A stretch of DNA of 64,000 nt from Kiritimatiellia bacterium (GTDB taxonomy: Bacteria; Verrucomicrobiota; Kiritimatiellia; CAIQIC01; Lenti-01): positions 19,927 to 83,926 of the forward strand of contig JBFXHR010000004.1 in NCBI GenBank assembly GCA_050176815.1, in the 5' to 3' direction. The translations under genes and the position numbers were made by a program. The notes under the pieces were generated by a model, which was not told the origin of the DNA, did no database searches, and was given only the letters and a program-made list of their open reading frames with translations. Shown here piece by piece: positions 34,955 to 64,000 of this stretch (position 1 is the first letter of the stretch; each line of letters opens with the position of its first letter).

Positions 34955-35568
34955 ACGAGCAACGGAATTCGAATATCCAACATCCAATATCCAATATCCC
35001 ATCTTCACGGGGAGACCTGCGGTATGCGCTGCGCGCGGACGTCGCGATCGAAGATTTCGGAGAGCGATCGCTCGTGCTGCGATGCGATGCGCTGGAGATG
35101 AGCGCGGTCAACGCGGGTGGACGGAAAATCCTGGCGCTGGTTGACGGGGGGCGGACGGTGGGGGATATTGCCGGGTCGGCAGGCCTGGCGATCGAAGACG
35201 TGCGGGCGGCGTTGCTGGAGATGGAGCGGCAAGGGATCGTGCGGCGAGTGGTGGATTTGAAGAAAGAAAGGCCGGAAAACATGGGCGAGGCGAAATATCT
35301 GGCGGATCCCGGCGTTTCCTTCCGGCCGGAGGATGGCGACGGCGCCATTCTGTACCACGCGGATACGGATTCGCTGGAGGTCGTCAATCCGGTGGCGGCG
35401 GAAATCTGGACGTATTTGGCCGCGCCGCGCACGCAGGCCGAGGTTGTCGCGCACTTGTGCGCGACGTGCGAGGGCGCCGTTCGGGACCAGGTCGAGAAAG
35501 ACGTGGCGGAGTTTGTCGAATCGCTCCTGGAAAAAGGCTTCATCGGCGTGGTGGAGGACCCCGCGTGA
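34951..35568 (+). CDS. tandem double PqqD-like (RRE) domain protein
   Basis: GTGA overlap. Two PqqD-like units (AIEDFGERSLVL...ILALVDGGRTVGDIA and DGDGAILYH...VNPVAAEIWTYLAAPRT). The N-terminus is encoded by an AAyATCC heptamer repeat. Confidence 0.6.
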   Translation: MNEQRNSNIQHPISNIPSSRGDLRYALRADVAIEDFGERSLVLRCDALEMSAVNAGGRKILALVDGGRTVGDIAGSAGLAIEDVRAALLEMERQGIVRRVVDLKKERPENMGEAKYLADPGVSFRPEDGDGAILYHADTDSLEVVNPVAAEIWTYLAAPRTQAEVVAHLCATCEGAVRDQVEKDVAEFVESLLEKGFIGVVEDPA

Positions 35569-36755
35569 CGGTGGCCGCCGATGCCTGCGACGGGCTGGAC
35601 GATCTCGCGCCCATCCCGACTCCCGTAACCATGCCGCCGGACGTTCCGGCCCTGAAGGTTTTCTATCTCTATTTGTCCGCCGGCTGCAATCTGCATTGCC
35701 GCCATTGCTGGATCACGCCGACTTTCGTGCACGGGAAGCCGGTTCCGGCGGAGTGCCTGGACTTCGATCTGCTGAAAAGCGCGGTGGCCGAGGCCAAGCC
35801 AATGGGCTTGTCGGCGGCGAAACTCACGGGAGGCGAGCCGACGTTGCATCCGGAGTTTCGGAAGATCGTCGATTTCCTGACCGCCGAGGGGCTGGACATC
35901 TCCATGGAGACCAATGCCACGCTGATCGACCGCGGGTTGGCGGTCCATCTGCGCGAAAAGACCCGTTTGAAGCGGATTGCCGCGAGTCTGGACAGTCCGA
36001 TCGCGTCGGAGCACGATCGATTCCGCGGCGTGATGGGGGCTTACGACGATGCGGTGCGGGGCATCGGCCATCTGGTTGCCGCCGGAATTCGTCCGCAGAT
36101 CATCATGTCCGTGTATCGCGGAAACCTCGGTCGGATCGAAGCCCTGATCGAACTGGCGATTCGACTTGGCGCCAGTTCGGTGAAGTTCAATCCGGTCACG
36201 CATTCGGGGCGCGGGGCGGAAATGCATCGGCAGGGGCAGGGATTGGATTTCAACGAGCAGATCGCGTTCGTCCGTCGCGTGCGCGGAACGCTTCAAGATC
36301 GATATCCCATTCATTTGGGCATCATGGTTCCGCCGGCGATGTCGACGGTGAAGGAATTGCTGCGCTACGGCGGCGACGGCGCGGGCTGCCACGTGCGGCA
36401 CATCCTGGGCATACTGGGCACGGGCGAGATGGCGTTGTGCGGCATCGGCCGGAACGTTCCGGAGCTGTGCTTCGGGGCATTGGGAAAGGATCGCCTGCGC
36501 GAGGTTTGGATGAACCATCCCGTCCTGCGGAAAATGCGGAAGGATTTGGCCGGTCCATTCCCCGGCATCTGCGGCGACTGTCTGCACGCGGGCCGCTGCA
36601 TGACGCATTGCCTGGCGCAGAATTTCGAGGCCAACGGCAAGCTGGTGTCGCCGTCGCCGCTGTGCGCGGAGGCCGTGCGGCGCGGGGCGTTCCCCGCGTC
36701 GCGCCGGGTATCGTGGAACCCGCCGCGTCCGAGTTCCGAGATCCAAGGCCGGTGA
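35565..36755 (+). CDS. radical SAM/SPASM-domain enzyme (no PqqD domain)
   Basis: GTGA overlap (alternative ATG at 35631). CNLHCRHC motif and a C-terminal SPASM-like Cys cluster (CGDCLHAGRCMTHC). Confidence 0.8.
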   Translation: MTVAADACDGLDDLAPIPTPVTMPPDVPALKVFYLYLSAGCNLHCRHCWITPTFVHGKPVPAECLDFDLLKSAVAEAKPMGLSAAKLTGGEPTLHPEFRKIVDFLTAEGLDISMETNATLIDRGLAVHLREKTRLKRIAASLDSPIASEHDRFRGVMGAYDDAVRGIGHLVAAGIRPQIIMSVYRGNLGRIEALIELAIRLGASSVKFNPVTHSGRGAEMHRQGQGLDFNEQIAFVRRVRGTLQDRYPIHLGIMVPPAMSTVKELLRYGGDGAGCHVRHILGILGTGEMALCGIGRNVPELCFGALGKDRLREVWMNHPVLRKMRKDLAGPFPGICGDCLHAGRCMTHCLAQNFEANGKLVSPSPLCAEAVRRGAFPASRRVSWNPPRPSSEIQGR

Positions 36756-54729: not shown

Positions 54730-56114
54730 TCGGGATTTCCGTTGGCGCAAAAGCGGCCGACGTTTTCAAAGTCGTCGCCGAGAGTGACGAGAGGAAGTTC
54801 CGCGGAGCCGTCGGCCAGGCGCCGGGACATGCCGATATTGGCGACGAGGGCGTTGCAGAGGCACTTGCGGCCGGCCAGGTCTTCCGGGCTGCCGCCCTTG
54901 GCGAGATAGGCCTTTTCAGGTTCGGCCGCGCAGCGATAGCCAATGGACCCGTCCGGTTTCCGATAGGCTTCGCGCAGGAAACCGAGGTCGCAGACCCGCT
55001 GCCGCCGGGCGTACAAATCCGGATCGGAAAGCGTTCCTTCCAGCTCGGCCACCTTGAACGGGAATCCCGTGGGCGAGGCTTTGGCATCGGTGAAGACCTT
55101 GGCCTTTCCGGCGAGGGCCTTGGCCAGGAGCGCCTGGCGGAGGTTCGGCGCCAAGCCGGATTCCCTGCACAGCGCGAACGGCGTGCCCACCTGGATGCCG
55201 GCGGCGCCCAGGCCGAGGGCTTCCTTCCGTTTTTCCGGCGAACCATAGGCGCCAGCCAGCCAAAACGGGAGGCCGAGCTTGCGGAAAATCTCCAGGTCGA
55301 CGGCGTCGCGCGAGCCGTAGATGGGCTGGCCGTCGGCGGTGAACTGCATCTGGCCCCGCGGGGGGGCATTGTGTCCGCCGGCCAGAGGGCCTTCGATGAC
55401 GAAGCCCGCCATGTCGCCCTTGATTCGCCGGACCAGCATGGTGGCCAGGGTGCTGGAGGAGACGATGGGCAGGAAGGCCGGGCGCGCCAGGGCCGGCAGG
55501 GATTGGCCGGGCTCCCAGAAGGCGCGGGGATCCAGCGTCGTGCGGACGGGTTCGCCCGACTGGTTGCCGGCGACGTTGATGGAGTAGGACGCGGGTTGGT
55601 GTTCGGCCAGCGCGGCGATGGCGGCCGGGAATTCCATGGGGATGCCCGCGCCGACGATCACGACGGCCACGCCGGCGAGCATGGCGCCGTAGAGCGACGG
55701 CAGATGGGGCAACTGGATCTTCTCGAGATAATTGATGCCGACGGGATTCGCATGGCCTTCGCGGGCCAGGAAGACTTCGACGAAATTCGCCGCGATGCAC
55801 AGTTCCTGCGCCGGGACGTTGCTTTCGACGGTGTTCATGCGGGTCAGCGCGTAGGGTTTGGCGGGGTCGCGCCCGCCGGGAATGAAATAGGCGTCGAGGA
55901 TCCGTTGCGCGATCTTGGGGAAGGGGAAATGGTCGAGGGCCCGCCGGACGTGGCCTTCCACGTCGCCGTCCTGCAAGCGCCGCGAAAGGATCTGGTCCAG
56001 CGCGGTGCCGGCCACGACGCCCAACTGGCCCAGCCAGGACACGGCCTTGGCCAGCCTCCAGTTCGAAACGCCGGCGCCCATGCCCCCTTGAATGATTTGC
56101 GGAATGGAATGCAT
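54690..56114 (-). CDS. nitronate monooxygenase / 2-nitropropane dioxygenase-family FMN enzyme
   Basis: IIQGGMGAGVS N-terminus and TIM-barrel FMN-binding motifs (GAGIPMEF, GPLAGGH). Confidence 0.75.
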   Translation of the reverse strand: MHSIPQIIQGGMGAGVSNWRLAKAVSWLGQLGVVAGTALDQILSRRLQDGDVEGHVRRALDHFPFPKIAQRILDAYFIPGGRDPAKPYALTRMNTVESNVPAQELCIAANFVEVFLAREGHANPVGINYLEKIQLPHLPSLYGAMLAGVAVVIVGAGIPMEFPAAIAALAEHQPASYSINVAGNQSGEPVRTTLDPRAFWEPGQSLPALARPAFLPIVSSSTLATMLVRRIKGDMAGFVIEGPLAGGHNAPPRGQMQFTADGQPIYGSRDAVDLEIFRKLGLPFWLAGAYGSPEKRKEALGLGAAGIQVGTPFALCRESGLAPNLRQALLAKALAGKAKVFTDAKASPTGFPFKVAELEGTLSDPDLYARRQRVCDLGFLREAYRKPDGSIGYRCAAEPEKAYLAKGGSPEDLAGRKCLCNALVANIGMSRRLADGSAELPLVTLGDDFENVGRFCANGNPDYSAADVVRILLG

Positions 56115-56260
56115 GGAAAAACAATATACGGCCTTGCCGGGCGGAAAGCGAGAATTGATTCCGGGCCGGTGGCGGACGGGGTATTTTCCTTGACCCCCCC
56201 GGAGAACGGAGTAGAAGTCGGAATTCGTTTTTTCCCGAACCAGCGGAACCGACGCGAGTT

Positions 56261-56932
56261 ATGCCATTGACCATCCCAGAAGCCGCCCGGATGCTGAATT
56301 TTACCGAGCGCGCGGTGCAGGAGCGCATCGAGAAGGGCGACCTCCCTTCCCGATGCGTGAATGGCCGCCATCTCCTGAACCGGGACGAGTTGATCGAATG
56401 GGCCACGGAACACGGCGTGCCCGTCGCGCTTGCGGCCGGCAAAGGCGCGGAACGCATGCCGGCGTTGAGCGAGGCCTTGGAAGCCGGCGGCATTGTCCAC
56501 GGAAATCCGGGCCGGGACAAGGATGCGGTGCTGCGGCACCTGGTCGAGAGCATGCCCTTGCCGGCGGACGTCGATCCGGATTTTCTCCACAGCGTATTGT
56601 TGGCGCGGGAAGCGCTCGGCTCGACGGCGGTGGGCGAGGGGGTGGCCGTCCCGCATCCGCGCAGCCCGATTCTGCTGCGCGTGCCGACGGCCTTGGTTAC
56701 GCTGTGTTTTCTGGAGGAGCCCATCGATTTCGGCGCGCTCGACGGCCAGCCCGTGCACGCGCTGTTTTCCATGATCAGTCCGACGACGCGGATCCATTTG
56801 CATCTGCTTTCCCGGCTGGCCTTCGCGCTGCGCGATCCGGGCTTCCAGGATGGCATTGCCCGCCGCGCACCGGCGGCGGAAATCCTGGAGGCGGCGCGCC
56901 GCATCGAAGCCGGCTCGGTTCCGGGCCCCTAG
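56261..56932 (+). CDS. HTH domain fused to PTS EIIA type-2 (PtsN-like) regulatory domain
   Basis: N-terminal excisionase/MerR-like HTH (MLNFTERAVQERI); C-terminal EIIA-2-like region with VAVPHPR. Confidence 0.6.
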   Translation: MPLTIPEAARMLNFTERAVQERIEKGDLPSRCVNGRHLLNRDELIEWATEHGVPVALAAGKGAERMPALSEALEAGGIVHGNPGRDKDAVLRHLVESMPLPADVDPDFLHSVLLAREALGSTAVGEGVAVPHPRSPILLRVPTALVTLCFLEEPIDFGALDGQPVHALFSMISPTTRIHLHLLSRLAFALRDPGFQDGIARRAPAAEILEAARRIEAGSVPGP

Positions 56933-56942
56933 GCGTTTACCC

Positions 56943-58931
56943 ATGCCGGCCGAACCTTCCAGTTTTCTTTTCCTTTTGCTTTGGGCCGGCGGCCTTCTGG
57001 CGCTGACGGGCGCGGCATCGGTCTGGGCCGGGCGCTGGTCGGAGCGCACCGCCGTGGCGATCGGCGCGGCCGGGGCGGTGGCCGCGTGCGGCGCGGGGCT
57101 GGTGGCCGCGATCGCGGCGCTGGCCGGGGGAACGTCTTGCGCGCTGGCGCTGCCGTGGAGCCTGCCCTACGGGGAATTCCGGATCGGGCTCGATCCCCTG
57201 AGCGCGTTTTTCCTGATCCCGACCTTCCTGCTGTCGGGCTTGGCGGCCATCTACTCCATCGGATATTTCCAGCCTTGGAACGGGCGCAATCCGGGACGAT
57301 TCTGGTTTTTCTACAATGCGCTGGTCGCCAGCATGGCGCTCGTGCTGCTGGCGCGCAACGGCGTGCTGTTCCTGGTGGCGTGGGAGGCGATGTCGCTGGC
57401 TTCGTTCTTCCTCGTGATTTTCGACGACGCGGAACCGGGCGTAACCGACGCGGGATGGACCTATCTGGTGGCGGCGCACGTCGGGACGGCGTTCCTGATG
57501 GCGCTGTTCATGTTGTTGGGTCGTGCAGGCGGTTCGCAGGATTTTGCCGCGTACGCCGCGCCGGCGGGATCGGCGGGCCTGTTGTTCGTTCTGGCGCTGG
57601 TTGGATTCGGCACGAAGGCGGGCCTGTTTCCGCTGCACGTGTGGCTGCCCGAGGCGCACCCGGCGGCGCCCAGTCCCGTGTCGGCGGTGATGTCGGGCGT
57701 GATGATCAAGACGGGCATCTACGGGATCGTCCGCACGCTGGTTCTCCTGGGCGCCGTTCCCGGCTGGTGCGCGTGGCTGGTTCTGGGCCTTGGCGCGGTT
57801 TCGGGCGTCCTCGGCGTGCTGTTCGCGCTGGCGCAGCACGATCTCAAGCGCCTGCTGGCCTATCACAGCGTCGAGAACGTCGGCATCATCGCGCTTGGAA
57901 TCGGCATGGGCATGCTGGGCGTTCACTGCCGTTCCCCCGCCGTCGCGGTTCTCGGTTTTGCCGGCGGATTGCTGCACGTGCTGAATCACGCGACGTTCAA
58001 GGGGCTGCTCTTCCTCGGGGCCGGTGCGGTGGCGCATGCCGCCGGCACGCGCGACGTCGAAAAACTGGGCGGCCTGCTCCGGCGCATGCCGTGGACGGGC
58101 GCGGCCTTTCTGGCGGGTTCCGCCGCGATTTGCGGCCTTCCGCCGTTCAACGGTTTCGCCAGCGAATTCCTGATCTACGTCGGCGCGTTCAAGACGATTC
58201 TGGCTGGGGGGGGGATCGCCTTGGGCGGCGCGGTCGCCCTGGTCGCCCTGGCGCTGATCGGCGGTCTGGCGGCGGCGTGTTTCGCCAAGGCGTTTGGAAT
58301 CGTTTTCCTCGGCGAGCCGCGCTCGCCGGCGGCGGCCAACGCCCGCGAAACGGGAGGATCGATGCGGTGGCCCATGGCGTTGCTGGCGGCGCTGTGCCTG
58401 GCGATTGGCCTCGCCGTGGGTTTCGCGGTGCGCTTCCTGGAACCCGCCGTTGCCATGCTGGTGGATTCCGCCGCGGCGGCGGAAGCCGCCCGCTGGGCGG
58501 ATCCCGTTTCGGTCGGCGCGCTTTGGCTGGCGCTGCTGGCGCTGGTAGCGGGACTGGTCTTGGTTCGCCGCGGGTTGCTGGCCAAGCGTTCCGTTCGGGA
58601 AACGGCCACGTGGGATTGCGGCTACGCGGCGCCTTCGGCCCGCATGCAATACACGGCGACGGGCTTCGCCCAGCCGTTGACGCACGGCGCGCAGGCCCTC
58701 CTGCGTTCCCATCTGGAATTCCATCCGCCGCGCGGGGTTTTTCCGGATTCCGCCTCGTTCCATTCCGAGACGCGGGACCTCGCGCGGGCCAACCTCTTCG
58801 AGCCGTTGTTCCGGACGACGGCGGATCTGCTGGGACGGTTGCGCTGGCTGCAGCAGGGCCGGGTCCATTTCTACGTCCTGTACATCGTCGTGGTCTTGAT
58901 GGTTCTGCTGGCCTGGGCGCTTCGGCCATGA
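56943..58931 (+). CDS. group-4 hydrogenase-like membrane subunit B (NuoL/HyfB-like antiporter subunit)
   Basis: 662 aa with about 16 TM helices; WLPEAHPAAPSPVSA motif. Confidence 0.85.
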   Translation: MPAEPSSFLFLLLWAGGLLALTGAASVWAGRWSERTAVAIGAAGAVAACGAGLVAAIAALAGGTSCALALPWSLPYGEFRIGLDPLSAFFLIPTFLLSGLAAIYSIGYFQPWNGRNPGRFWFFYNALVASMALVLLARNGVLFLVAWEAMSLASFFLVIFDDAEPGVTDAGWTYLVAAHVGTAFLMALFMLLGRAGGSQDFAAYAAPAGSAGLLFVLALVGFGTKAGLFPLHVWLPEAHPAAPSPVSAVMSGVMIKTGIYGIVRTLVLLGAVPGWCAWLVLGLGAVSGVLGVLFALAQHDLKRLLAYHSVENVGIIALGIGMGMLGVHCRSPAVAVLGFAGGLLHVLNHATFKGLLFLGAGAVAHAAGTRDVEKLGGLLRRMPWTGAAFLAGSAAICGLPPFNGFASEFLIYVGAFKTILAGGGIALGGAVALVALALIGGLAAACFAKAFGIVFLGEPRSPAAANARETGGSMRWPMALLAALCLAIGLAVGFAVRFLEPAVAMLVDSAAAAEAARWADPVSVGALWLALLALVAGLVLVRRGLLAKRSVRETATWDCGYAAPSARMQYTATGFAQPLTHGAQALLRSHLEFHPPRGVFPDSASFHSETRDLARANLFEPLFRTTADLLGRLRWLQQGRVHFYVLYIVVVLMVLLAWALRP

Positions 58932-59839
58932 ACGCGGCATCCCTTCTCCATCCCGTTCTCGCGATTCTGCTGTCGCCGCTGCTGCCGGGCGTGATCAATC
59001 GGATCAAGGCGCTTTTCGCCGGCCGCAAGGGGCCGCCGCTGCTGCAGGCCTATCTCGATTTATGGAAATTGCTGCGGAAAGGGGCGGCCTACAGCCGAAC
59101 CGCGACGTGGGTCTTCCGCGCGGGGCCCCTCGTGAATTTCGCCTGCCTGCTGGCCGCGCTGGCCGTGCTTCCGCTGGGGCGCGTGCCGGCGCCGTTTTCC
59201 TTCGCGGGCGATTGGATCGTTTTGGCCTATCTGCTGGGCCTGGGGCGGTTCGCCACGGTGGTGGCCGCGCTGGACGTCGGCTCGAGCTTCGAAGGCATGG
59301 GCGCCAGCCGCGAGGTGCAGTTCGCGGTCGTCGCGGAGCCGGCGCTGCTGGTCGGGCTGGCCGCGCTGGCGCGCAGCGCGCAGGCGCTTTCGCTGTCGGG
59401 CATGTATTCGAGCCCGGTGGCTTCGGCGTCGATCCCCGCCTTGCCGTTTTTCGTTTTGCTGTGCGCGGGCTTCTTCATCCTGTTCCTGGCGGAGAACTGC
59501 CGGATTCCGGTGGACGATCCGAATACGCATCTGGAACTGACGATGATCCACGAAGTGATGGTGCTCGATCACGGCGGCGTGGATTTTGGATTCGTGGAGT
59601 GGGCCTCGGCCCTGAAGCTGTGGGTGCTGGGGGCCCTGCTGGTCGGGATCGCGCTGCCGATCGCCACGGGGCATCCGCTGGCGGACGTGGCGCTGGGGGT
59701 GGCGGGCTTGCTGGCGCTGGCGGCCGTTACGGGCATCGTGGAATCCATTACGGCGCGCGTGCGCCTGCTGCGCGTGCCGCAGCTGTTGGTCGGCGCGGGC
59801 GTTCTGTGCGCCTTGAGCCTGTTGCTGACCATCCGGTGA
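58928..59839 (+). CDS. membrane subunit C (NuoH/HycD-like)
   Basis: ATGA overlap; 303 aa; NuoH-like helices. Confidence 0.8.
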   Translation: MNAASLLHPVLAILLSPLLPGVINRIKALFAGRKGPPLLQAYLDLWKLLRKGAAYSRTATWVFRAGPLVNFACLLAALAVLPLGRVPAPFSFAGDWIVLAYLLGLGRFATVVAALDVGSSFEGMGASREVQFAVVAEPALLVGLAALARSAQALSLSGMYSSPVASASIPALPFFVLLCAGFFILFLAENCRIPVDDPNTHLELTMIHEVMVLDHGGVDFGFVEWASALKLWVLGALLVGIALPIATGHPLADVALGVAGLLALAAVTGIVESITARVRLLRVPQLLVGAGVLCALSLLLTIR

Positions 59840-59843
59840 ACGC

Positions 59844-60494
59844 ATGAACGGCGCCGTTGAAATCATTTTGATGTTCCTGATCCTGACGGATCTGGTCCTG
59901 CTGGGCTCGAGCCGGTTGCGGAACGCCATCCGCATCGCCGCGGCGCAGGGGCTGGCGCTCGGGCTGCTGCCGCTGCTGGCGCATAGCCACGTGGCCTGGC
60001 CGGCGGTCTTGCTGGGGGTGGGCAGCGCGGGGCTCAAGGGCTTCGTGTTTCCGGCCCTGCTGAACCGGGCCTTGCGGGAAACCAACGCCCGGCGCGAAAT
60101 CGAGCCCTTCGTCGGCTACATCCTTTCGCTGCTCCTGGGCGTGGGGGGGCTGGCGGTTTCCTTCTGGGTCGGCGCGCAACTGCCGCTGCCGTGGGAAGTT
60201 TCCTCTTCGCTGCTGGTGCCGTCGGGGCTCTTTACGCTCTGGACGGGGCTGTTCCTGATCATGGCGCGGAAAAAGGCCATCACGCAGGTGCTGGGCTACG
60301 TCGTGATGGAAAACGGCATTTTCGCGCTGGGCATGGTGCTGGTGGAGGCGATGCCCCTGCTGGTGGAACTGGGCGTGCTGCTGGACGTGTTCGTGGCCGT
60401 GTTCGTCATGGGCATCATCGTGTTCAACATCAACCGCGAGTTCGACCACATCGATTCCGACCAGCTCGCGGCGCTGAAGGAGGATGCGCCATGA
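59844..60494 (+). CDS. membrane subunit E (HyfE/NuoK-like)
   Basis: 216 aa polytopic; GYVVMENGIFALG. Confidence 0.65.
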   Translation: MNGAVEIILMFLILTDLVLLGSSRLRNAIRIAAAQGLALGLLPLLAHSHVAWPAVLLGVGSAGLKGFVFPALLNRALRETNARREIEPFVGYILSLLLGVGGLAVSFWVGAQLPLPWEVSSSLLVPSGLFTLWTGLFLIMARKKAITQVLGYVVMENGIFALGMVLVEAMPLLVELGVLLDVFVAVFVMGIIVFNINREFDHIDSDQLAALKEDAP

Positions 60495-61966
60495 CGCTTG
60501 CGCTGATCTTCCTGCCGTTGGCGGCGGCGGTGGCCGCCATGCTGATCCGCCCGGACCGTCCGCGCCGGGCATTGCTGGTGGGGACCGCGGCGGTCCACGC
60601 GGCGCTGGCGGCGGGATGCTGCCTGGCGCCACCGGCCTATGCGCCGGAGGCCTGGGTGGGTTTCGATGCGGCCGGGCGGCTGTTTCTGGGCATTGCGAGC
60701 TTCCTGTTTCTGGCGGTGTCGGTCTACGCGGCGCACGTTTTGGGGCAGGAGGCGCATGGCCGCCAGACCGAAGAGGACACCGGTTCGGCGTTCGTCAATG
60801 CGCCGGAAGCGGTCTACGTCGCTTGCCTGCTGGTCTTCCTTTCGATGATGACGCTGGTGGCCGCGAGCCGGCATTTGGGCCTGCTCTGGGTGGCCGTGGA
60901 AGCGACGACGCTGGCCACGGCGCCGCTGATCTACTTCCACCGGCAGCCGCGTTCGCTGGAGGCGACGTGGAAATATTTGCTGGTGTGTTCGGTCGGCATT
61001 GCGCTGGCGTTGCTGGGCAACTTCCTGCTGGTGATCGCGTCGGCGGGTCCCGGCGGAACGGATGGATCGCTGCAGGTGGCCGAGCTGGTTGCGCGGGGCG
61101 GGCGGATGCACGGACCGTGGCTGAAGGCGGCGTTCGTCTTCTTGCTGGTCGGCTACGGCACGAAGATGGGGCTCGTGCCGATGCACACCTGGCTGCCCGA
61201 CGCGCACAGCGAGGCGCCGTCGCCGGTTTCCGCGCTGCTCTCCGGCGCGCTGCTGAACTGCGCGTTTCTGGGCATTCTGCGCGCGCATGCGATCTGCGCG
61301 GCGGCCGGCCTGGGCGATTTCAGCGGGCAACTGCTGGTGGGGTTCGGCCTGCTGTCGATGGGCGTGGCGGCGGCGTTTCTGGTTCACCAACCCGACTACA
61401 AGCGGATGCTGGCCTATTCGAGCGTGGAAAACATGGGGCTGCTGGCGCTGGGCGCGGGACTGGGCGGCGCCGCGACCTACGGCGCGCTGCTCCACGCGGT
61501 GAACCATTCCGCGGTGAAGGCCGCGCTTTTCATGGTGGCCGGCAATTTCCTGTTCGCGTACCGGACGAAAGCCATCGCGCGCATCGGCGGGGCCCTCCAT
61601 CGGATTCCCGCCAGCGGCGCGTTGTGGCTGGCGGGGCTTTTCGCCATCGCCGGTTCGCCGCCGTTCGGGACGTTCGCCAGCGAATTCACGATGTTCCGCG
61701 CGGCGTTTGCGCAGGGCCGCGCCTGGGTGGCGGCGGTGGCCCTGGTCGCGCTGACCATTGCGTTCGTCGGCATGTCGCGGGCGTTTTTGGGGATGTCCTT
61801 GGGCCGCGCGCCGGAAGGGGAGGCGCCGGTGCGCGAACGCGCGGCGGCTTTTGCGCCCGCGCTGGTTTTGCTGGCGGTTTCGCTGGTGCTGGGGCTGTGG
61901 ATCCCGGCCGGCCTGGATGAAATGCTGGTCCATGCTTCCCGCCTGCTGGGGGGAGGGGCGCCATGA
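60491..61966 (+). CDS. membrane subunit F (NuoN/M-like antiporter subunit, HyfF-like)
   Basis: ATGA overlap; WLPDAHSEAPSPVSALLSG; 491 aa. Confidence 0.85.
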   Translation: MTLALIFLPLAAAVAAMLIRPDRPRRALLVGTAAVHAALAAGCCLAPPAYAPEAWVGFDAAGRLFLGIASFLFLAVSVYAAHVLGQEAHGRQTEEDTGSAFVNAPEAVYVACLLVFLSMMTLVAASRHLGLLWVAVEATTLATAPLIYFHRQPRSLEATWKYLLVCSVGIALALLGNFLLVIASAGPGGTDGSLQVAELVARGGRMHGPWLKAAFVFLLVGYGTKMGLVPMHTWLPDAHSEAPSPVSALLSGALLNCAFLGILRAHAICAAAGLGDFSGQLLVGFGLLSMGVAAAFLVHQPDYKRMLAYSSVENMGLLALGAGLGGAATYGALLHAVNHSAVKAALFMVAGNFLFAYRTKAIARIGGALHRIPASGALWLAGLFAIAGSPPFGTFASEFTMFRAAFAQGRAWVAAVALVALTIAFVGMSRAFLGMSLGRAPEGEAPVRERAAAFAPALVLLAVSLVLGLWIPAGLDEMLVHASRLLGGGAP

Positions 61967-63483
61967 GTGGAACGCCCGCGATTTTCCGGAATCTGGAGAG
62001 GATTCCCGCCGCGCGGATTCCGGCGATGGCCGTCGCCGATTTCCGCCGCGCAACGTTGGACGCCGTGGCGGAGGGCTGCCGCATCGCGGCTTTTTATGGC
62101 GCGCCGCTGGCGGATGGCGGCGTGCGGCTGACGGCTATTTTGGCCGACGACCGCGCGGGCGAGCTGCGCGCCGTCGCGACCGATCCCGGCGAAGCCTATC
62201 CGGCGCTGGCGCCCGAGTGCCCGCAGGCGGGCGGATTCGAGCGGGAGATCGCGGAGCAATGGGCAGTGGCGCCGCTTGGGCATCCGTGGCTCAAGCCCTT
62301 GCGGTTCCATCGATCGTACCGGCCGGGGCGCGACGCCTGGGGCCGTGCGGGCGAACGTCCGCCGGCGCCGTCGGTGATGGATTTCTTCCGCGTGGAGGGC
62401 GAAGGCATCCACGAGGTCGCGGTGGGCCCGGTGCATGCGGGCATCATCGAGCCCGGCCATTTCCGGTTCCAGTGCCATGGCGAACAGGTGCTGCATCTCG
62501 AAATATCGCTGGGCTACCAGCACCGCGGCGTCGAGCGCGCGCTGGCCGGCGGCCCGCATCCGCGCACGATGTTCCAGATGGAAACGCTGGCCGGCGACAC
62601 GACGATTGGCCACGCGCTGGCCTACTGCCAAGCGGTGGAAGCGCTGGCCGGCTGCCGCGTGCCGGCGCGCGCCCAGGCCCTGCGGGCCGTGGCGCTCGAA
62701 CTGGAGCGGTTGGCGAACCATACCGGCGATCTCGGCGCGCTGGCGGGCGACGTGGGCTATCTGCCGACGTCGTCTTTCTGCGGTCGGCTGCGCGGGGATT
62801 TCCTGAACCAGACGGCGCTGTTGTGCGGCAGCCGGTTCGGGCGCGGATTCGTGCGCCCCGGCGGAACCGCCTTCGACGTGGATGCCGCCATCGTCGGCGA
62901 TTTGCGCCAACGGTTGGATTCGACGTTCCGCGACGTCTCCGGCGCGGCGAATCTGCTGTGGGAGACCGCGTCGGTGATGGCCCGGTTCGAAAACACGGGC
63001 GTCGTCGCGCCGGAAACCGCGGTGGAGTTGGGGCTGGTCGGTCCCGCGGCGCGCGCCAGCGGGCGGGAAATCGACGCGCGGCGGGATTTCCCGTCGGGCA
63101 TCTACCGTTTCGCGCAAATGCCGGTGTCGACGTTCGACAGCGGCGACGTCTTCGCGCGCGCCTACGTGCGCTGGCTGGAAATCCAGCGTTCGGTCCAGTT
63201 CATCCGGGACCAGCTCGCGGCGCTGCCGGCCGGGGCGGTGCGCGCGGCGTGCGGGCCGCTGGCGCCGGACTCGACGGTCGTGTCGATCCACGAGGGTTGG
63301 CGCGGCGAAATCGTCCACGTGGCGGCGACGGACGCGGCCGGGCGGTTCGCGCGCTACAAGGTGGTCGATCCTTCCTTCCACAACTGGCTGGGCCTGGCGC
63401 TGGCGCTGCGCGGCCAGGAAATCTCGGATTTCCCGCTCTGCAACAAGAGCTTCAACCTTTCCTACTGCGGGCACGACCTATGA
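61963..63483 (+). CDS. NuoC-NuoD-like fused large subunit (HycE/HyfG homolog) apparently lacking the NiFe-binding CxxC motifs
   Basis: VGPVHAGIIEPGHFRF...YQHRGVE matches the HycE/NuoD core. Where HycE has RVCGICGFAH this protein has TTIGHALAY. The C-terminus ends SYCGHDL instead of DPCxxCxxR. Confidence 0.8.
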   Translation: MSGTPAIFRNLERIPAARIPAMAVADFRRATLDAVAEGCRIAAFYGAPLADGGVRLTAILADDRAGELRAVATDPGEAYPALAPECPQAGGFEREIAEQWAVAPLGHPWLKPLRFHRSYRPGRDAWGRAGERPPAPSVMDFFRVEGEGIHEVAVGPVHAGIIEPGHFRFQCHGEQVLHLEISLGYQHRGVERALAGGPHPRTMFQMETLAGDTTIGHALAYCQAVEALAGCRVPARAQALRAVALELERLANHTGDLGALAGDVGYLPTSSFCGRLRGDFLNQTALLCGSRFGRGFVRPGGTAFDVDAAIVGDLRQRLDSTFRDVSGAANLLWETASVMARFENTGVVAPETAVELGLVGPAARASGREIDARRDFPSGIYRFAQMPVSTFDSGDVFARAYVRWLEIQRSVQFIRDQLAALPAGAVRAACGPLAPDSTVVSIHEGWRGEIVHVAATDAAGRFARYKVVDPSFHNWLGLALALRGQEISDFPLCNKSFNLSYCGHDL

Positions 63484-64000
63484 TCCGGGCCCTCCTCGAA
63501 CGTCTGCGCCAGAAGCACCGCACGGTGGCCTATCCCGCGAAGCCGCCGACGCTTCCCGACCGTTTCCGCGGGGCGCCGGCGCTGTCGCCGGAAAAATGCC
63601 CCGCCGGCTGCGCGGCATGCGCCGCGGCGTGTCCCGTCGGCGCGATTTCGCGCGACGGCGGCGCGCTGCGGATCGATCTGGGGAAATGCCTGTTCTGCGG
63701 CGACTGCGCGGCGGCGTGTCCGCACGGCGCGATTCGGTTCACGCGCGACCACCGGCTAGCGGCGCGGCGGCGCGGCGATCTCGCGCTCGGCGCGGGGGAA
63801 CGCCAACTGGCCGAAGCCCTCGACGCGAAGATGAAGAGTTTGTTCGGCCGTTCGCTGAAATTGCGGCAGGTGTGCGCGGGCGGCTGCGGCGCGTGCGAGG
63901 CGGATACGAACGTGCTGGGCACCGTCGTGTTCGACCTCGGCCGCTTCGGCATCCAGTTCGTGGCCTCGCCGCGGCACGCCGACGGCTTGCTCGTCACGGG
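63480..64000 (+). CDS. fused 2x[4Fe-4S] ferredoxin (HycF/HyfH-like) and NuoB/HycG-like small subunit, 3' truncated by the window
   Basis: ATGA overlap. CPAGCAACAAACP and CLFCGDCAAACP ferredoxin motifs, then VCAGGCGACE (NuoB/HycG-type cluster ligands). Open to the window end. Confidence 0.7.
   Translation, partial: MIRALLERLRQKHRTVAYPAKPPTLPDRFRGAPALSPEKCPAGCAACAAACPVGAISRDGGALRIDLGKCLFCGDCAAACPHGAIRFTRDHRLAARRRGDLALGAGERQLAEALDAKMKSLFGRSLKLRQVCAGGCGACEADTNVLGTVVFDLGRFGIQFVASPRHADGLLVT

What the first reader, a model, noticed from the sequence alone, without database searches (positions are those of the whole stretch)
56261..64000. Group-4 hydrogenase-like operon whose large subunit lacks NiFe-ligating cysteines (Ehr-type), headed by an HTH-PTS-EIIA fusion
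Gene order is B(NuoL-like)-C(NuoH-like)-E-F(NuoN-like)-G(NuoCD-like)-H/I(ferredoxin fused to NuoB-like), all with ATGA overlaps, matching hyf/hyc architecture. In the large subunit the RxCGxCxxxH motif is replaced by TTIGHALAY and the C-terminal DPCxxCxxR is absent (it ends SYCGHDL). The small subunit keeps its Fe-S cysteines. This is the signature of energy-converting hydrogenase-related complexes that are not hydrogenases and whose substrate is unknown. The operon's first gene fuses a MerR/excisionase-like HTH to a PtsN-like EIIA domain, which suggests phosphorylation-dependent control.
Basis: partly seen in the sequence, partly recalled or inferred. Interest (0 to 1): 0.55.

Follow-up and report, generated by a model that had tools for sequence, protein, structure and literature searches.

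The report
Ehr-type hydrogenase-like membrane complex operon
This is a seven-gene operon from a Kiritimatiellia bacterium that encodes a complex-I/hydrogenase-like membrane machine with no nickel-iron site, a member of the widespread Ehr/Hyq group whose substrate is still unknown, and it is headed by a regulator gene that travels with the operon across many phyla.

Summary
Window 56261-64000 (+) encodes HTH_17-PTS_EIIA_2, then HyfB-, HyfC/NuoH-, HyfE-, HyfF-, NuoCD/HycE-like proteins and a 2x[4Fe-4S]-NuoB fusion that is cut by the window end. Four junctions are ATGA overlaps.

An alignment with E. coli HycE, HyfG and NuoCD puts A210, T213, S500 and G503 at the four Ni-Fe cysteines. The protein ends where HycI cleaves HycE. 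No hyp or hycI gene lies in the window or next to 87 of 88 related loci.

This is an Ehr complex (Geobacter ehr; function unknown as of 2025). Its nearest studied relative is the Azorhizobium hyqRBCEFGI "endo-hydrogenase" (33-36% identity).

- The pocket is remodelled, not decayed: GD[TS][TS]xGH and the C-terminus FPLCNKSFNLSYCGHDL are invariant in 83 sequences from about ten phyla.
- The HTH-EIIA gene precedes the operon in 49 of 54 informative loci, with its PtsN-type histidine conserved.
- Rhizobial Hyq has an unrelated XRE regulator in the same slot.

Most likely it is a ferredoxin-linked, ion-translocating oxidoreductase. The acceptor is unresolved; quinone is my leading candidate. It is a new member of a known kind, of moderate interest.

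The parts
56190..56217 (+). Promoter-like site TTGACC-N16-TAGAAG, about 45-70 nt upstream of the first gene, with CGGAGAACGGAG in the spacer
   Evidence: The block TTGAC(A/C)-N16-TA(G/A)A(A/T), with GAAACGGAG in the spacer, is conserved at the same distance in the close relatives L002, L003 and L081. This is a consensus match and footprint only; function was not tested.
56261..56932 (+). Gene 1 (R): 223-aa fusion of an excisionase/MerR-like HTH_17 domain (residues 3-51) and a PtsN-like EIIA domain (residues about 70-210, phospho-acceptor-type His132)
   Evidence: Pfam PF12728 6e-9 and PF00359 2e-20; TIGR01419 PtsN 6e-16. Best PDB hit is E. coli PtsN 1a6j. AF2 model pLDDT 88; Foldseek top hits are PtsN structures, and no two-domain precedent appeared. 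The 'GxGxAxPH' motif is invariant in 37-51 homologues.
56943..58931 (+). Gene 2: HyfB/EhrA-like antiporter-type membrane subunit (NuoL-like), 662 aa
   Evidence: PF00361 5e-49; NCBIfam 'hydrogenase 4 subunit B' 629 bits over nearly the full length. The start at 56943 matches the 662-aa gene called in L081.
58928..59839 (+). Gene 3: HyfC/NuoH/EhrB-like membrane subunit, 303 aa
   Evidence: PF00146 1.5e-28. ATGA overlap with gene 2.
59844..60494 (+). Gene 4: HyfE/EhrC-like membrane subunit with a NuoK-like C-terminal part, 216 aa
   Evidence: NF008556 'hydrogenase 4 membrane subunit' 1.7e-23; PF00420 5.7e-6.
60491..61966 (+). Gene 5: HyfF/EhrD-like antiporter-type membrane subunit (NuoM/N-like), 491 aa
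   Evidence: PF00361 2.4e-47; NCBIfam 'hydrogenase 4 subunit F' 346 bits. ATGA overlaps on both sides.
61963..63483 (+). Gene 6: large subunit (EhrL/HyqG-like, NuoC-NuoD fusion), 506 aa, without Ni-Fe cysteines. Signature motifs: GPVHAGIIEPGHFRF (155-169), AGDTTIGH (210-217), C-terminal FPLCNKSFNLSYCGHDL (490-506)
   Evidence: PF00346 1.4e-36. Best PDB hit is HycE 7z0s_E at 2e-43. Alignment A1 with HycE, HyfG and NuoCD. 83-sequence conservation analysis. 100% identical to P0001, 'MAG: hydrogenase [Kiritimatiellia bacterium]'.
63480..64000 (+). Gene 7 (incomplete, runs off the window): small subunit, an N-terminal HyfH/NuoI-like 2x[4Fe-4S] domain fused to a NuoB/HyfI-like domain. About 255 aa expected from relatives
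   Evidence: Translation. Fer4 families and NF009053/NF006076 on residues 1-103. The full-length 255-aa orthologue in L081 carries PF01058. Alignment A2 with HycG, HyfI and NuoB shows CxxxCxxCE, GAC and GCPP.

Best explanation
The region is one operon with its own promoter. It encodes a six-subunit, complex-I-like membrane oxidoreductase of the Ehr/Hyq kind, preceded by its own regulator gene.

**Shown**
- The subunit set is Hyf-like: two antiporter-type subunits, a NuoH-like subunit and a HyfE-like subunit.
- The peripheral module is a NuoCD/HycE-like large subunit plus a small subunit that carries three [4Fe-4S] binding motifs.
- The large subunit cannot bind a canonical Ni-Fe centre.
- The pocket keeps a different set of invariant residues.
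- The regulator gene is a conserved part of the module.

**Inferred mechanism**
1. Reduced ferredoxin, or a similar low-potential carrier, docks on the HyfH-like domain.
2. Electrons pass through its two clusters to the proximal NuoB-type cluster.
3. They reach a substrate held in the remodelled pocket at the large/small/NuoH-like interface. This pocket is lined by E163, D212, H217, C493, C502, H504, D505 and the free C-terminus.
4. As in complex I, MBH and FHL, this chemistry drives H+ or Na+ movement through the HyfC/HyfE and HyfB/HyfF subunits. The reaction may also run in reverse.

**Acceptor.** It is not resolved. My ranking is a membrane quinone about 0.35, protons/H2 at a non-canonical site about 0.1-0.15, and another small oxidant or partner protein for the rest.

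**Regulation.** Transcription is probably set by the gene-1 protein. Its HTH_17 domain would bind the promoter region. Its PtsN-type EIIA domain would respond to phosphorylation of His132 by an HPr/NPr-type protein, tying expression to the carbon, nitrogen or energy state.
For: **Identity of the parts**
- Subunit identities come from Pfam and NCBIfam and PDB.
- Tight coupling of the seven genes is seen directly.
- In an 85%-identical relative the operon ends after the small subunit and the next genes are convergent.

**Not a Ni-Fe enzyme**
- A210/T213/S500/G503 sit at the HycE cysteine positions, and there is no C-terminal extension.
- No hyp or hycI gene occurs in the window or in 87 of 88 loci.

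**Still functional**
- The large subunit is 59-85% identical across Verrucomicrobiota, Planctomycetota, Methylomirabilota, Myxococcota/'Deltaproteobacteria', Acidobacteriota, Binatia, Riflebacteria and spirochaetes.
- G211, D212, H217, C493, C502, D505 and the hydrogenase-type loop GPxHAGxIEPGHFRF are invariant or nearly so in 83 sequences.
- Fe-S ligands are conserved.

**Ferredoxin input.** The HyfH/NuoI-like 2x[4Fe-4S] domain is fused to the NuoB-like domain.

**Self-contained module.** Clustering of flanking ORFs finds no gene family conserved beyond the seven genes.

**Regulator**
- Present in 49 of 54 informative loci, mostly within -4 to +50 nt of the next gene.
- Reverse look-ups from two distant regulator homologues land on the same operon.
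- The PtsN-type His is invariant.
- Rhizobial Hyq operons have an unrelated XRE HTH gene in the same slot, which argues the slot holds a regulator rather than a subunit.

**Literature.** The literature agrees that Ehr complexes are not hydrogenases and are of unknown function (PMC12342949, PMC10284858, PMC6349859).
Against: - No activity, cofactor or expression data exist for this subfamily. Ferredoxin as partner and ion translocation are inferred only from homology.
- The quinone idea is weakened because the complex-I quinone ligands are absent. T. thermophilus Nqo4 Tyr87 and His38 correspond to G211 and I162 here.
- The family occurs in MAGs of spirochaetes and other fermenters that may lack quinones. 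That statement rests on my own knowledge and was not checked.
- For the related Hyq operon, whole-operon deletions change H2 fluxes in Azorhizobium (PMC3357923, PMC2650096), so a role in H2 metabolism is not excluded.
- DNA binding by the HTH-EIIA protein, its operator and its phosphorylation are untested.
- The direct-repeat motif seen upstream in other phyla is not present in this window.
Confidence: 0.55

Rival explanations
1. It is a genuine H2-metabolising enzyme with a non-canonical, cysteine-poor catalytic site, working like the proposed Azorhizobium Hyq 'endo-hydrogenase'. Ferredoxin would reduce protons, or H2 would be oxidised, at the pocket formed by D212, H217, C493, C502, H504 and D505.
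For: - HyqG of Rhizobium and Azospirillum shares the same signature motifs (GPVHAGIIEPGHFRF, GDxTxxH, C-terminal DFPLCNKSFNxSYxGHDL) at 33-36% identity.
- hyqRBCEFGI deletions raised H2 evolution about 15-fold in diazotrophic cultures and lowered it under microaerobiosis (PMC3357923).
- The hydrogenase-type loop, with the Glu aligned to the 'EPGHFR' Glu of HycE/HyfG, is retained.
Against: - All four Ni-Fe ligands are missing and no hyp or hycI genes are linked.
- The Hyq evidence is whole-operon genetics without complementation or a cell-free assay. The authors themselves call a Ni-Fe site 'uncertain, if not unlikely' (PMC3357923).
- The H2 phenotype could be indirect, through electron allocation to nitrogenase.
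- Ehr expression in Nitrospira moscoviensis did not rise with H2 (PMC12342949).
- No H2-activating site without a NiFe, FeFe or Fe-GP cofactor is known (established knowledge).
Confidence: 0.12
2. It is specifically a ferredoxin:quinone oxidoreductase, a complex I without the NADH module. It would pump ions when ferredoxin reduces menaquinone, or use the ion gradient to reduce ferredoxin from quinol.
For: - Large-subunit NCBIfam hits are to NuoD models (191 bits), and PDB hits to Nqo4 are as strong as to MbhL.
- There are two antiporter-type subunits, one of them NuoL-like and full length, plus a NuoH-like subunit. This suits a reaction with a large redox span (inference).
- The family occurs in aerobes and anaerobes alike.
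- Ehr and Hyq were proposed as intermediates between hydrogenases and complex I (PMC4758237, citing Marreiros 2013).
Against: - The quinone-head ligands of complex I are not conserved. NuoCD Tyr aligns with G211, and His of the beta1-beta2 loop aligns with I162.
- The loop is hydrogenase-type, not complex-I-type.
- No NuoA or NuoJ homologues were detected.
- Quinone biosynthesis in the host genomes was not checked.
Confidence: 0.3
3. It is a decaying remnant of a group-4 hydrogenase operon that lost its active site and no longer has a function.
For: All four Ni-Fe cysteines are lost.
Against: - All seven reading frames are intact with coupled junctions.
- There are more than 8000 homologues, and the related loci sampled are 59-85% identical across about ten phyla.
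- Replacement motifs are invariant and Fe-S ligands are conserved.
- Geobacter Ehr subunits are detected as proteins and change with the electron donor (PMC7894505).
Confidence: 0.01
4. The HTH-EIIA protein is not a transcription factor but a peripheral subunit or post-translational gate. It would dock on the complex and switch it according to its phosphorylation state, as EIIA-Ntr does with TrkA and KdpD in E. coli.
For: - The gene is co-oriented and often overlaps the first membrane-subunit gene by 4 nt, suggesting co-translation.
- Free PtsN acts by protein-protein contacts (established knowledge of E. coli PTS-Ntr).
- The HTH part is less conserved than the EIIA part.
Against: - It carries a recognisable DNA-binding HTH_17 domain.
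- Rhizobial Hyq operons have an unrelated small XRE-type HTH protein at the same position, also overlapping the B gene.
- A direct repeat GGACA-N5-GGACA is enriched upstream of the gene in 29 of 52 loci against 1.8 expected, which fits an operator.
Confidence: 0.15

Closest known systems
Ehr (Ech/energy-converting hydrogenase-related) complex, first named in Geobacter sulfurreducens (ehrA-1, A-2, B, C, D, L, S; GSU0734, GSU0739-0745)
   Same: - Same subunit types: NuoL-like, NuoH-like, HyfE-like, HyfF-like, large and small subunits.
- Large subunit without Ni-Fe cysteines.
- Function unknown.
- Eight-gene variants with a second EhrA-like gene occur among the related loci (PMC7894505 and its supplement).
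   Different: I could not retrieve the Geobacter sequences, so direct orthology and the presence of an HTH-EIIA gene there are untested. This window has only one EhrA-type gene.
Azorhizobium caulinodans hyqRBCEFGI 'endo-hydrogenase' and its rhizobial and Azospirillum orthologues
   Same: - Seven genes in the same order, R-B-C-E-F-G-I.
- HyqG is about 504 aa, a NuoC-NuoD fusion lacking both CxxC motifs.
- Shared motifs: GPVHAGIIEPGHFRF, GDxTxxH and C-terminal DFPLCNKSFNxSYxGHDL (PMC3357923).
   Different: - Only 33-36% identity in the large subunit.
- HyqR is a 98-104 aa XRE-type HTH_3 protein unrelated to the HTH_17-EIIA protein.
- HyqI is NuoB-only (177 aa), without the 2x[4Fe-4S] domain.
- The second conserved C-terminal Cys sits three residues earlier in Hyq (NCSY vs SYCG).
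- hyq is NifA/sigma-54 controlled, whereas this window has a sigma-70-like site.
E. coli hydrogenase 4 (Hyf) and hydrogenase 3 (Hyc, formate hydrogenlyase; PDB 7Z0S)
   Same: - Membrane subunits are best matched by HyfB, HyfE and HyfF models.
- HycE is the best solved-structure match for the large subunit (2e-43).
- The small-subunit Cys pattern is identical to HycG/HyfI.
- The HyfH/HycF-like domain is present.
   Different: - No Ni-Fe cysteines and no 32-residue C-terminal extension.
- No hycI or hyp, no HyfA/HycB, no HyfD and no formate dehydrogenase partner.
- HyfH and HyfI are fused into one protein.
- 27% identity to HycE and HyfG.
Pyrococcus MBH (6CFW) and MBS/MBX (6U8Y) complexes
   Same: Ferredoxin-dependent, ion-translocating relatives of complex I. 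MBS is a precedent for a hydrogenase-derived complex that lost Ni-Fe chemistry and reduces another substrate near the proximal cluster. That point is established knowledge, not tested here.
   Different: Weaker similarity (MbhL 1e-36; MbsL 1e-19). This operon has no Mrp-type multi-subunit Na+/H+ module, and its pocket motifs differ.
Respiratory complex I / NDH-1 (NuoB, C, D, H, K, L, M, N)
   Same: Homologous core of Q-module and P-module subunits. The large subunit ends at the same position as NuoCD.
   Different: - No NuoE/F/G, NuoA or NuoJ.
- The quinone-binding Tyr and His are not conserved.
- 21% identity to E. coli NuoCD.
PtsN / EIIA-Ntr (E. coli 1A6J, Burkholderia 3URR)
   Same: The C-terminal domain of gene 1 has the EIIA_2 fold and the 'GxGxAxPH' phosphorylation motif.
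   Different: It is fused to an N-terminal HTH_17 DNA-binding domain and heads an ehr operon instead of lying in the rpoN cluster. No solved structure has this two-domain arrangement.

Membership tests
Ehr (hydrogenase-related) complex | Gene cluster encoding NuoL/M/N-like, NuoH-like and HyfE-like membrane subunits plus NuoD-like large and NuoB-like small subunits | tested here: met
   Pfam and NCBIfam hits for all six structural genes.
Ehr (hydrogenase-related) complex | Large subunit lacks the N- and C-terminal CxxC ligands of the Ni-Fe centre | tested here: met
   In alignment A1 with HycE and HyfG, A210/T213/S500/G503 replace the four Cys. The same holds in 83 family members.
Ehr (hydrogenase-related) complex | Small subunit keeps the cysteines of the proximal [4Fe-4S] cluster | tested here: met
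   CxxxCxxCE lies within the window. GAC and GCPP lie beyond the window end but are conserved in 73 orthologues and align with HycG, HyfI and NuoB.
Ehr (hydrogenase-related) complex | No linked Ni-Fe maturation genes or dedicated dehydrogenase partner | tested here: met
   No hyp, hycI or FDH in the window. tblastn with E. coli HycI, HycH and HypA-D found a single HycI-like hit (L035) in 1.45 Mb of loci. No conserved flanking family.
Group 4 [NiFe]-hydrogenase (Hyc/Hyf/Ech/Mbh) | L1 motif RxCGxCxxxH and L2 motif DPCxxCxxR in the large subunit | tested here: not met
   The window has TLAGDTTIGH and NLSYCGHDL at these positions.
Group 4 [NiFe]-hydrogenase (Hyc/Hyf/Ech/Mbh) | C-terminal extension removed by a specific endopeptidase, as in Hyc/Hyf, and dependence on Hyp proteins | tested here: not met
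   The protein ends at the residue aligned with HycE R537. There is no 32-aa tail and no hycI or hyp nearby. Genome-wide absence could not be tested.
Hyq 'endo-hydrogenase' (hyqRBCEFGI) | Seven-gene order R-B-C-E-F-G-I with a Cys-less HyqG of about 504 aa | tested here: met
   Same order and size (PMC2650096, PMC3357923).
Hyq 'endo-hydrogenase' (hyqRBCEFGI) | HyqR-type regulator (small XRE HTH) and NuoB-only HyqI | tested here: not met
   Rhizobium HyqR is HTH_3, 98-104 aa, with no similarity to the window protein. HyqI is 177 aa with PF01058 only, whereas the window protein has an added 2x[4Fe-4S] domain.
Hyq 'endo-hydrogenase' (hyqRBCEFGI) | NifA box and sigma-54 promoter; induction under N2 fixation | tested here: not met
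   No GG-N10-GC type site in the 250 nt upstream; a sigma-70-like TTGACC-N16-TAGAAG is present instead. This was a regex scan only.
Hyq 'endo-hydrogenase' (hyqRBCEFGI) | In vivo H2 recycling activity | not testable with these tools
   Needs physiology or biochemistry.
Respiratory complex I / NDH-1 type quinone reductase | Quinone-head ligands in NuoD (T. thermophilus Nqo4 Tyr87 and His38) | tested here: not met
   They align with G211 and I162.
Respiratory complex I / NDH-1 type quinone reductase | Full membrane arm (NuoA, H, J, K, L, M, N) | tested here: not met
   Only NuoH-like, a HyfE (NuoK-like part) and two antiporter-like subunits were found; no NuoA or NuoJ hits.
PtsN / EIIA-Ntr (for gene 1) | EIIA_2 fold with the conserved phospho-acceptor histidine | tested here: met
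   PF00359 2e-20; PtsN 1a6j 1.6e-13, with His132 aligned to His73; Foldseek top hits are PtsN.
PtsN / EIIA-Ntr (for gene 1) | Stand-alone protein of about 150-160 aa phosphorylated by NPr | tested here: not met
   223 aa with an N-terminal HTH_17 domain. NCBIfam PtsN scores of 55-59 bits fall far below the cut-offs of 139-221. Phosphotransfer itself is not testable here.

The most novel reading that the evidence does not exclude
The invariant replacement residues may form a new catalytic site. They are D212 between the two lost N-terminal cysteines, H217, and C493, C502, H504, D505 and the free carboxylate at the C-terminus, together with the retained hydrogenase-type proton-relay loop. Such a site, possibly a mononuclear metal centre or a cluster-proximal acid/base pocket, would give Ehr/Hyq complexes real chemistry. 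That chemistry could be the H2 turnover claimed genetically for Hyq, or reduction of an as yet unrecognised substrate. A PTS-type phosphorylation signal would switch it on. If so, this would be a fourth branch of the complex I/hydrogenase superfamily with its own active site, present in thousands of environmental bacteria.
Probability: 0.12. Interest if true: 0.85.

Novelty: new member of a known kind. Interest (0 to 1): 0.4.

Why it matters
Ehr/Hyq complexes are among the most widespread members of the complex I/hydrogenase superfamily without an assigned reaction. They turn up in Geobacter, Nitrospira, ammonia oxidisers, candidate phyla and, as shown here, in Kiritimatiellia, Verrucomicrobiota and Planctomycetota. 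Public annotation names them inconsistently: the database names seen here include 'hydrogenase', 'Ni,Fe-hydrogenase III large subunit' and 'NADH-quinone oxidoreductase subunit C'.

This window does not solve the function, but it sharpens the question in three ways:
- The active-site pocket is remodelled and invariant, which gives concrete residues to mutate.
- The small subunit carries a ferredoxin-type entry domain, which points to the electron partner.
- A PtsN-like HTH regulator is part of the module across phyla, which suggests the conditions (PTS phosphorylation state) under which the complex is made. It also gives an experimental handle on expression.

A practical consequence is that metabolic reconstructions should not count these genes as H2-evolving hydrogenases.

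Tried and rejected
**Look-ups that failed**
- The look-up of encoding contigs with the window's large subunit and with the 100% identical P0001 found nothing. I used the 85% relative P0010 instead to see the operon end.
Whether GSU0735-0738 include an HTH-EIIA gene stayed open, and a literature search for those tags found nothing.
- Marreiros et al. 2013 (10.1016/j.bbabio.2012.09.012) is not held. I cannot say whether the replacement motifs or the regulator link were already described there.

**Searches with negative results**
- I looked for a conserved partner (formate dehydrogenase, hyp, NuoEFG, PTS genes) by clustering all flanking ORFs of about 80 loci. No gene family was shared beyond small sets of related loci (at most 9 of about 80).
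- A sigma-54 promoter scan upstream of gene 1 found nothing in the window or its relatives.
- An Rfam scan of 55800-64000 gave only sub-threshold noise.

**Ideas dropped**
- The GGACA-N5-GGACA repeat found upstream in other phyla is absent from this window and its close relatives, so it cannot be claimed as the operator here.
- I considered HyqR as a homologue of gene 1 and rejected it. HyqR is XRE HTH_3, and BLASTP found no similarity.
- The Foldseek search with the regulator model returned only EIIA-domain matches and gave no information on the HTH domain.
- I considered modelling the large subunit but did not run it, because model coordinates cannot be inspected with these tools.

Full report
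**What is in the sequence**

Window 56261-64000 carries seven co-oriented genes on the + strand:
- 56261-56932: a 223-aa protein with HTH_17 (PF12728, 6e-9) and PTS_EIIA_2 (PF00359, 2e-20).
- 56943-58931: HyfB-like (NCBIfam 'hydrogenase 4 subunit B', 629 bits, almost full length).
- 58928-59839: NuoH/HyfC-like (PF00146).
- 59844-60494: HyfE-like (NF008556).
- 60491-61966: HyfF-like.
- 61963-63483: a 506-aa NuoC-NuoD/HycE-like large subunit (PF00346).
- 63480 onward: a protein whose first ~100 residues match HyfH/HycF/NuoI 2x[4Fe-4S] proteins and which then continues into a NuoB/HyfI-like domain. It is cut by the window end.

Four junctions are ATGA overlaps. C/E has a 4-nt gap and EIIA/B a 10-nt gap.

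The large subunit is 100% identical to a database protein named 'MAG: hydrogenase [Kiritimatiellia bacterium]', so the window comes from a Kiritimatiellia MAG.

**Where the operon ends**

The window stops inside gene 7. In an 85-86% identical relative (L081) the small subunit is 255 aa and carries PF01058. The next genes there (a hybrid histidine kinase and a lactate dehydrogenase) are convergent. The operon is therefore R-B-C-E-F-G-(HI) and nothing more.

**The cysteine question**

I aligned the large subunit with E. coli HycE, HyfG and NuoCD, taken from NC_000913.3, and with relatives (alignment A1).
- HycE/HyfG 'RVCGICGFAH' aligns without gaps to 'TLAGDTTIGH'.
- 'DPCYSCTDR' aligns to 'NLSYCGHDL'.
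- The four Ni-Fe ligands (HycE C241, C244, C531, C534) correspond to A210, T213, S500 and G503.
- The only nearby cysteine, C502, is one position off and has no partner.
- The protein ends exactly at the residue aligned with HycE R537. After that residue HycE and HyfG carry the 32-residue tail removed by the HycI protease. The cleavage site is established knowledge; the tail is visible in A1.

There is no hyp, hycI, formate dehydrogenase or PTS gene anywhere in the 64-kb window. The rest of the window is an exopolysaccharide cluster, radical-SAM genes, malonate decarboxylase, aconitase, UvrA, a TPR protein, Vsr, acetolactate decarboxylase and an NMO-family gene. A tblastn with E. coli HycI, HycH and HypA-D against the window and 88 loci (1.45 Mb) gave one HycI-like hit, in L035.

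**The site is remodelled, not lost**

A scan of species-representative genomes returned 570 relatives. The best 80 come from Verrucomicrobiota, Planctomycetota, Kiritimatiellia, Lentisphaerota, Methylomirabilota, Myxococcota/'Deltaproteobacteria', Acidobacteriota, Binatia, Riflebacteria, Hydrogenedentes, Methylococcaceae and spirochaetes, at 59-85% identity.

In 83 full-length sequences:
- The loop GPVHAGIIEPGHFRFQC is invariant or nearly so. It is of the HycE type ('GPLHVTSDEPGHFRL'), not the complex-I type.
- In the L1 region, G211, D212 and H217 are invariant ('AGD[TS][TS][IV]GH').
- The last 17 residues, FPLCNKSFNLSYCGHDL, are essentially invariant, including C493, C502, H504 (81 of 83) and D505.

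The complex-I quinone ligands are not there either. The NuoCD/Nqo4 Tyr aligns with G211 and the loop His with I162.

The small subunit keeps the eight ferredoxin-type cysteines and the HycG/HyfI-type pattern CxxxCxxCE...GAC...GCPP. A pseudogene or decayed-remnant reading is excluded.

**What family it is**

The literature defines Ehr (Ech- or energy-converting-hydrogenase-related) complexes by exactly these features and states that their function is unknown:
- Geobacter ehrA-1/A-2/B/C/D/L/S, whose subunits are more abundant on formate (PMC7894505).
- Desulfotomaculum (PMC3569383).
- Margulisbacteria and Saganbacteria, where a formate-dehydrogenase partner was suggested (PMC6349859).
- Comammox Nitrospira (PMC10284858).
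- Nitrospirales in general: 'function remains unknown', and not induced by H2 in N. moscoviensis (PMC12342949).
- Ammonia-oxidising archaea (PMC10432482).

A second lead came from PMC4758237, which names 'hyq' beside 'ehr' as group-4 relatives without Ni-Fe ligands. The Azorhizobium caulinodans operon hyqRBCEFGI has the same seven-gene order. Its HyqG is 504 aa and lacks both CxxC motifs. Whole-operon deletion raised H2 evolution in diazotrophic cultures and lowered it under microaerobiosis. The authors had no cell-free assay and themselves doubt a Ni-Fe site (PMC2650096, PMC2930871, PMC3357923).

Using tblastn on plasmids I recovered rhizobial and Azospirillum hyq loci. Their HyqG is 33-36% identical to the window protein and shares its signature: GPVHAGIIEPGHFRF, 'SGD[AS]TVA[HY]', and C-terminal DFPLCNKSFNCSY[AS]GHDL. 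A Variovorax plasmid homologue is 44% identical and has the fused small subunit. E. coli HycE and HyfG are 27% identical and NuoCD 21%.

The window operon therefore belongs to the Ehr/Hyq branch. It differs from Hyq proper in three ways:
- The small subunit has an added HyfH-like 2x[4Fe-4S] domain, whereas HyqI is NuoB-only at 177 aa.
- The second C-terminal cysteine is displaced by three residues.
- The first gene is different.

**The first gene**

The EIIA domain is PtsN-like.
- The best solved match is E. coli PtsN 1A6J (1.6e-13). 'REALGSTAVGEGVAVPH' aligns to 'REKMGSTGIGNGIAIPH', so His132 corresponds to the phospho-acceptor His73.
- An AF2 model (pLDDT 88) finds PtsN structures first and finds no solved protein with the two-domain architecture.
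- NCBIfam PtsN scores are far below the equivalog cut-offs, so it is not PtsN itself.

The gene is a conserved part of the module.
- Of 54 related loci with a complete HyfB gene and at least 900 nt upstream, 49 carry it. In most, its stop lies within -4 to +50 nt of the next start (approximate, since starts were chosen by a simple rule).
- In four loci a second EhrA-like gene lies between.
- Starting instead from two distant homologues of the regulator (56-57% identity, from a Planctomycetes MAG and a JGI metagenome) leads to the same operon.
- His132 and the surrounding motif are invariant.

In rhizobial hyq operons the same slot, also overlapping the B gene by 4 nt, is occupied by an unrelated 98-104 aa XRE-type HTH_3 protein. 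Two non-homologous HTH proteins in the same position argue that the slot holds a transcription factor rather than a structural subunit.

**Promoter**

In the 146-nt gap between the divergent NMO-family gene and gene 1 there is a TTGACC-N16-TAGAAG site (56190-56217). The block TTGAC(A/C)-N16-TA(G/A)A(A/T), with GAAACGGAG in the spacer, is conserved in the close relatives L002, L003 and L081. No sigma-54-type site and no Rfam element were found.

In other phyla, 29 of 52 upstream regions carry a direct repeat GGACA-N5-GGACA within about 30-90 nt of the start codon, against 1.8 expected from shuffles. This may be the operator of the HTH_17 domain. As far as I recall, excisionase/BldC-type domains are known to bind direct repeats head-to-tail. 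The repeat is absent from this window, so I do not claim it here.

**How it most likely works**

Shown:
- A self-contained operon, with no conserved neighbours.
- Three conserved [4Fe-4S] motifs.
- A Hyf-type membrane arm with two antiporter-like subunits.
- A large subunit that cannot hold Ni-Fe but has an invariant alternative pocket.

Inferred:
1. A low-potential carrier such as ferredoxin delivers electrons to the HyfH-like domain.
2. The electrons reach the proximal cluster.
3. They reduce a substrate at the large/small/NuoH-like interface.
4. The reaction is coupled to H+ or Na+ translocation, possibly reversibly.

I rank the acceptor as quinone about 0.35, protons/H2 at a non-canonical site 0.1-0.15, and something else for the rest.
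- The size of the pumping module and the occurrence in aerobes and anaerobes favour quinone. The missing Tyr/His ligands and the hydrogenase-type loop count against it.
- The Hyq genetics favour H2. The absence of any known H2-activating cofactor ligands, and the Nitrospira expression data, count against it.

Expression is probably governed by the HTH-EIIA protein in response to phosphorylation of His132 by an HPr/NPr-type protein. That would couple synthesis of the complex to the PEP/pyruvate or nitrogen/energy state. The Azorhizobium relative is also under nitrogen control (NifA), which may or may not be a coincidence.

**Verdict**

The window holds a new member of a known but functionally unsolved kind.
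- The link to Hyq.
- The invariant replacement motifs.
- The finding that the PtsN-like HTH gene is an integral, cross-phylum part of the module.

I could not check whether these last points are already in Marreiros et al. 2013. Interest is moderate.

Noticed in passing
L005-L080, 30-90 nt upstream of the HTH-EIIA gene (for example L007, L013, L023, L043): A direct repeat GGACA-N5-GGACA, mostly on the minus strand, lies upstream of the operon in 29 of 52 related loci from several phyla. Shuffled sequences give 1.8 expected. In L023 it sits between a -35 and a -10 hexamer. It is a candidate operator for the HTH_17 domain and is absent from this window and its close relatives.
   Followed up: partly
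window 56190-56260; L002, L003, L081 at the same distance from the start codon: Close relatives share CTTGAC(A/C)-N9-10-GAAACGGAGTA(G/A)A and a downstream TGTTT(T)CCCCC block in the leader. The window has CGGAG repeated (CGGAGAACGGAG).
   Followed up: partly
L018, L031, L052, L053, L068, L079, L080: Some loci are an eight-gene variant of the operon, with a second HyfB/EhrA-like gene of about 2 kb between the regulator gene and the HyfC-like gene. This is reminiscent of Geobacter ehrA-1/ehrA-2.
   Followed up: no
L087:3552-3848 and L088:3413-3727 (Rhizobium plasmids): Rhizobial hyq operons start with a 98-104 aa XRE-type HTH gene that overlaps hyqB by 4 nt. The position is the same as that of the unrelated HTH_17-EIIA gene here, an apparent non-homologous replacement of the operon's regulator.
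   Followed up: yes
L081:3160-4203 and L082:3180-4223: The 85%-identical relatives have an extra 347-aa gene without Pfam hits between the NMO-family gene and the regulator gene. In this window the two genes are only 146 nt apart.
   Followed up: no
L046:17640-18254 (-) and four other loci: Additional paralogous HTH-EIIA genes of about 200 aa, with the same 'GIAIPHPR' motif, occur elsewhere in the flanks of five loci. The regulator family is therefore not restricted to ehr operons.
   Followed up: no
L035:17337-17753 (-): This is the only HycI-like endopeptidase hit in all 88 loci, about 6 kb downstream of the operon in a Phycisphaerales MAG. It probably belongs to a separate, genuine hydrogenase cluster.
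   Followed up: no
window 33533-36755: A 473-aa PqqD-radical SAM-SPASM fusion lies close upstream of a second radical SAM protein of 432 aa, at the end of the polysaccharide cluster. The pair resembles a peptide-maturase (RiPP-type) system.
   Followed up: no
window 1-33500: A large exopolysaccharide/capsule biosynthesis cluster: Wzz/Wzy, Poly_export, several GT4 glycosyltransferases, a DegT aminotransferase, a polysaccharide deacetylase and an FGE-sulfatase domain protein at 17185-19311. GC drops to about 0.60 at 20-24 kb.
   Followed up: partly
L086:14640-19467 (Variovorax plasmid): The Variovorax plasmid carries two hyf-like clusters side by side. One is an Ehr-type cluster with the fused small subunit and no HTH-EIIA gene (a CopG-family gene lies upstream on the other strand). 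The second cluster starts 4 kb downstream.
   Followed up: no
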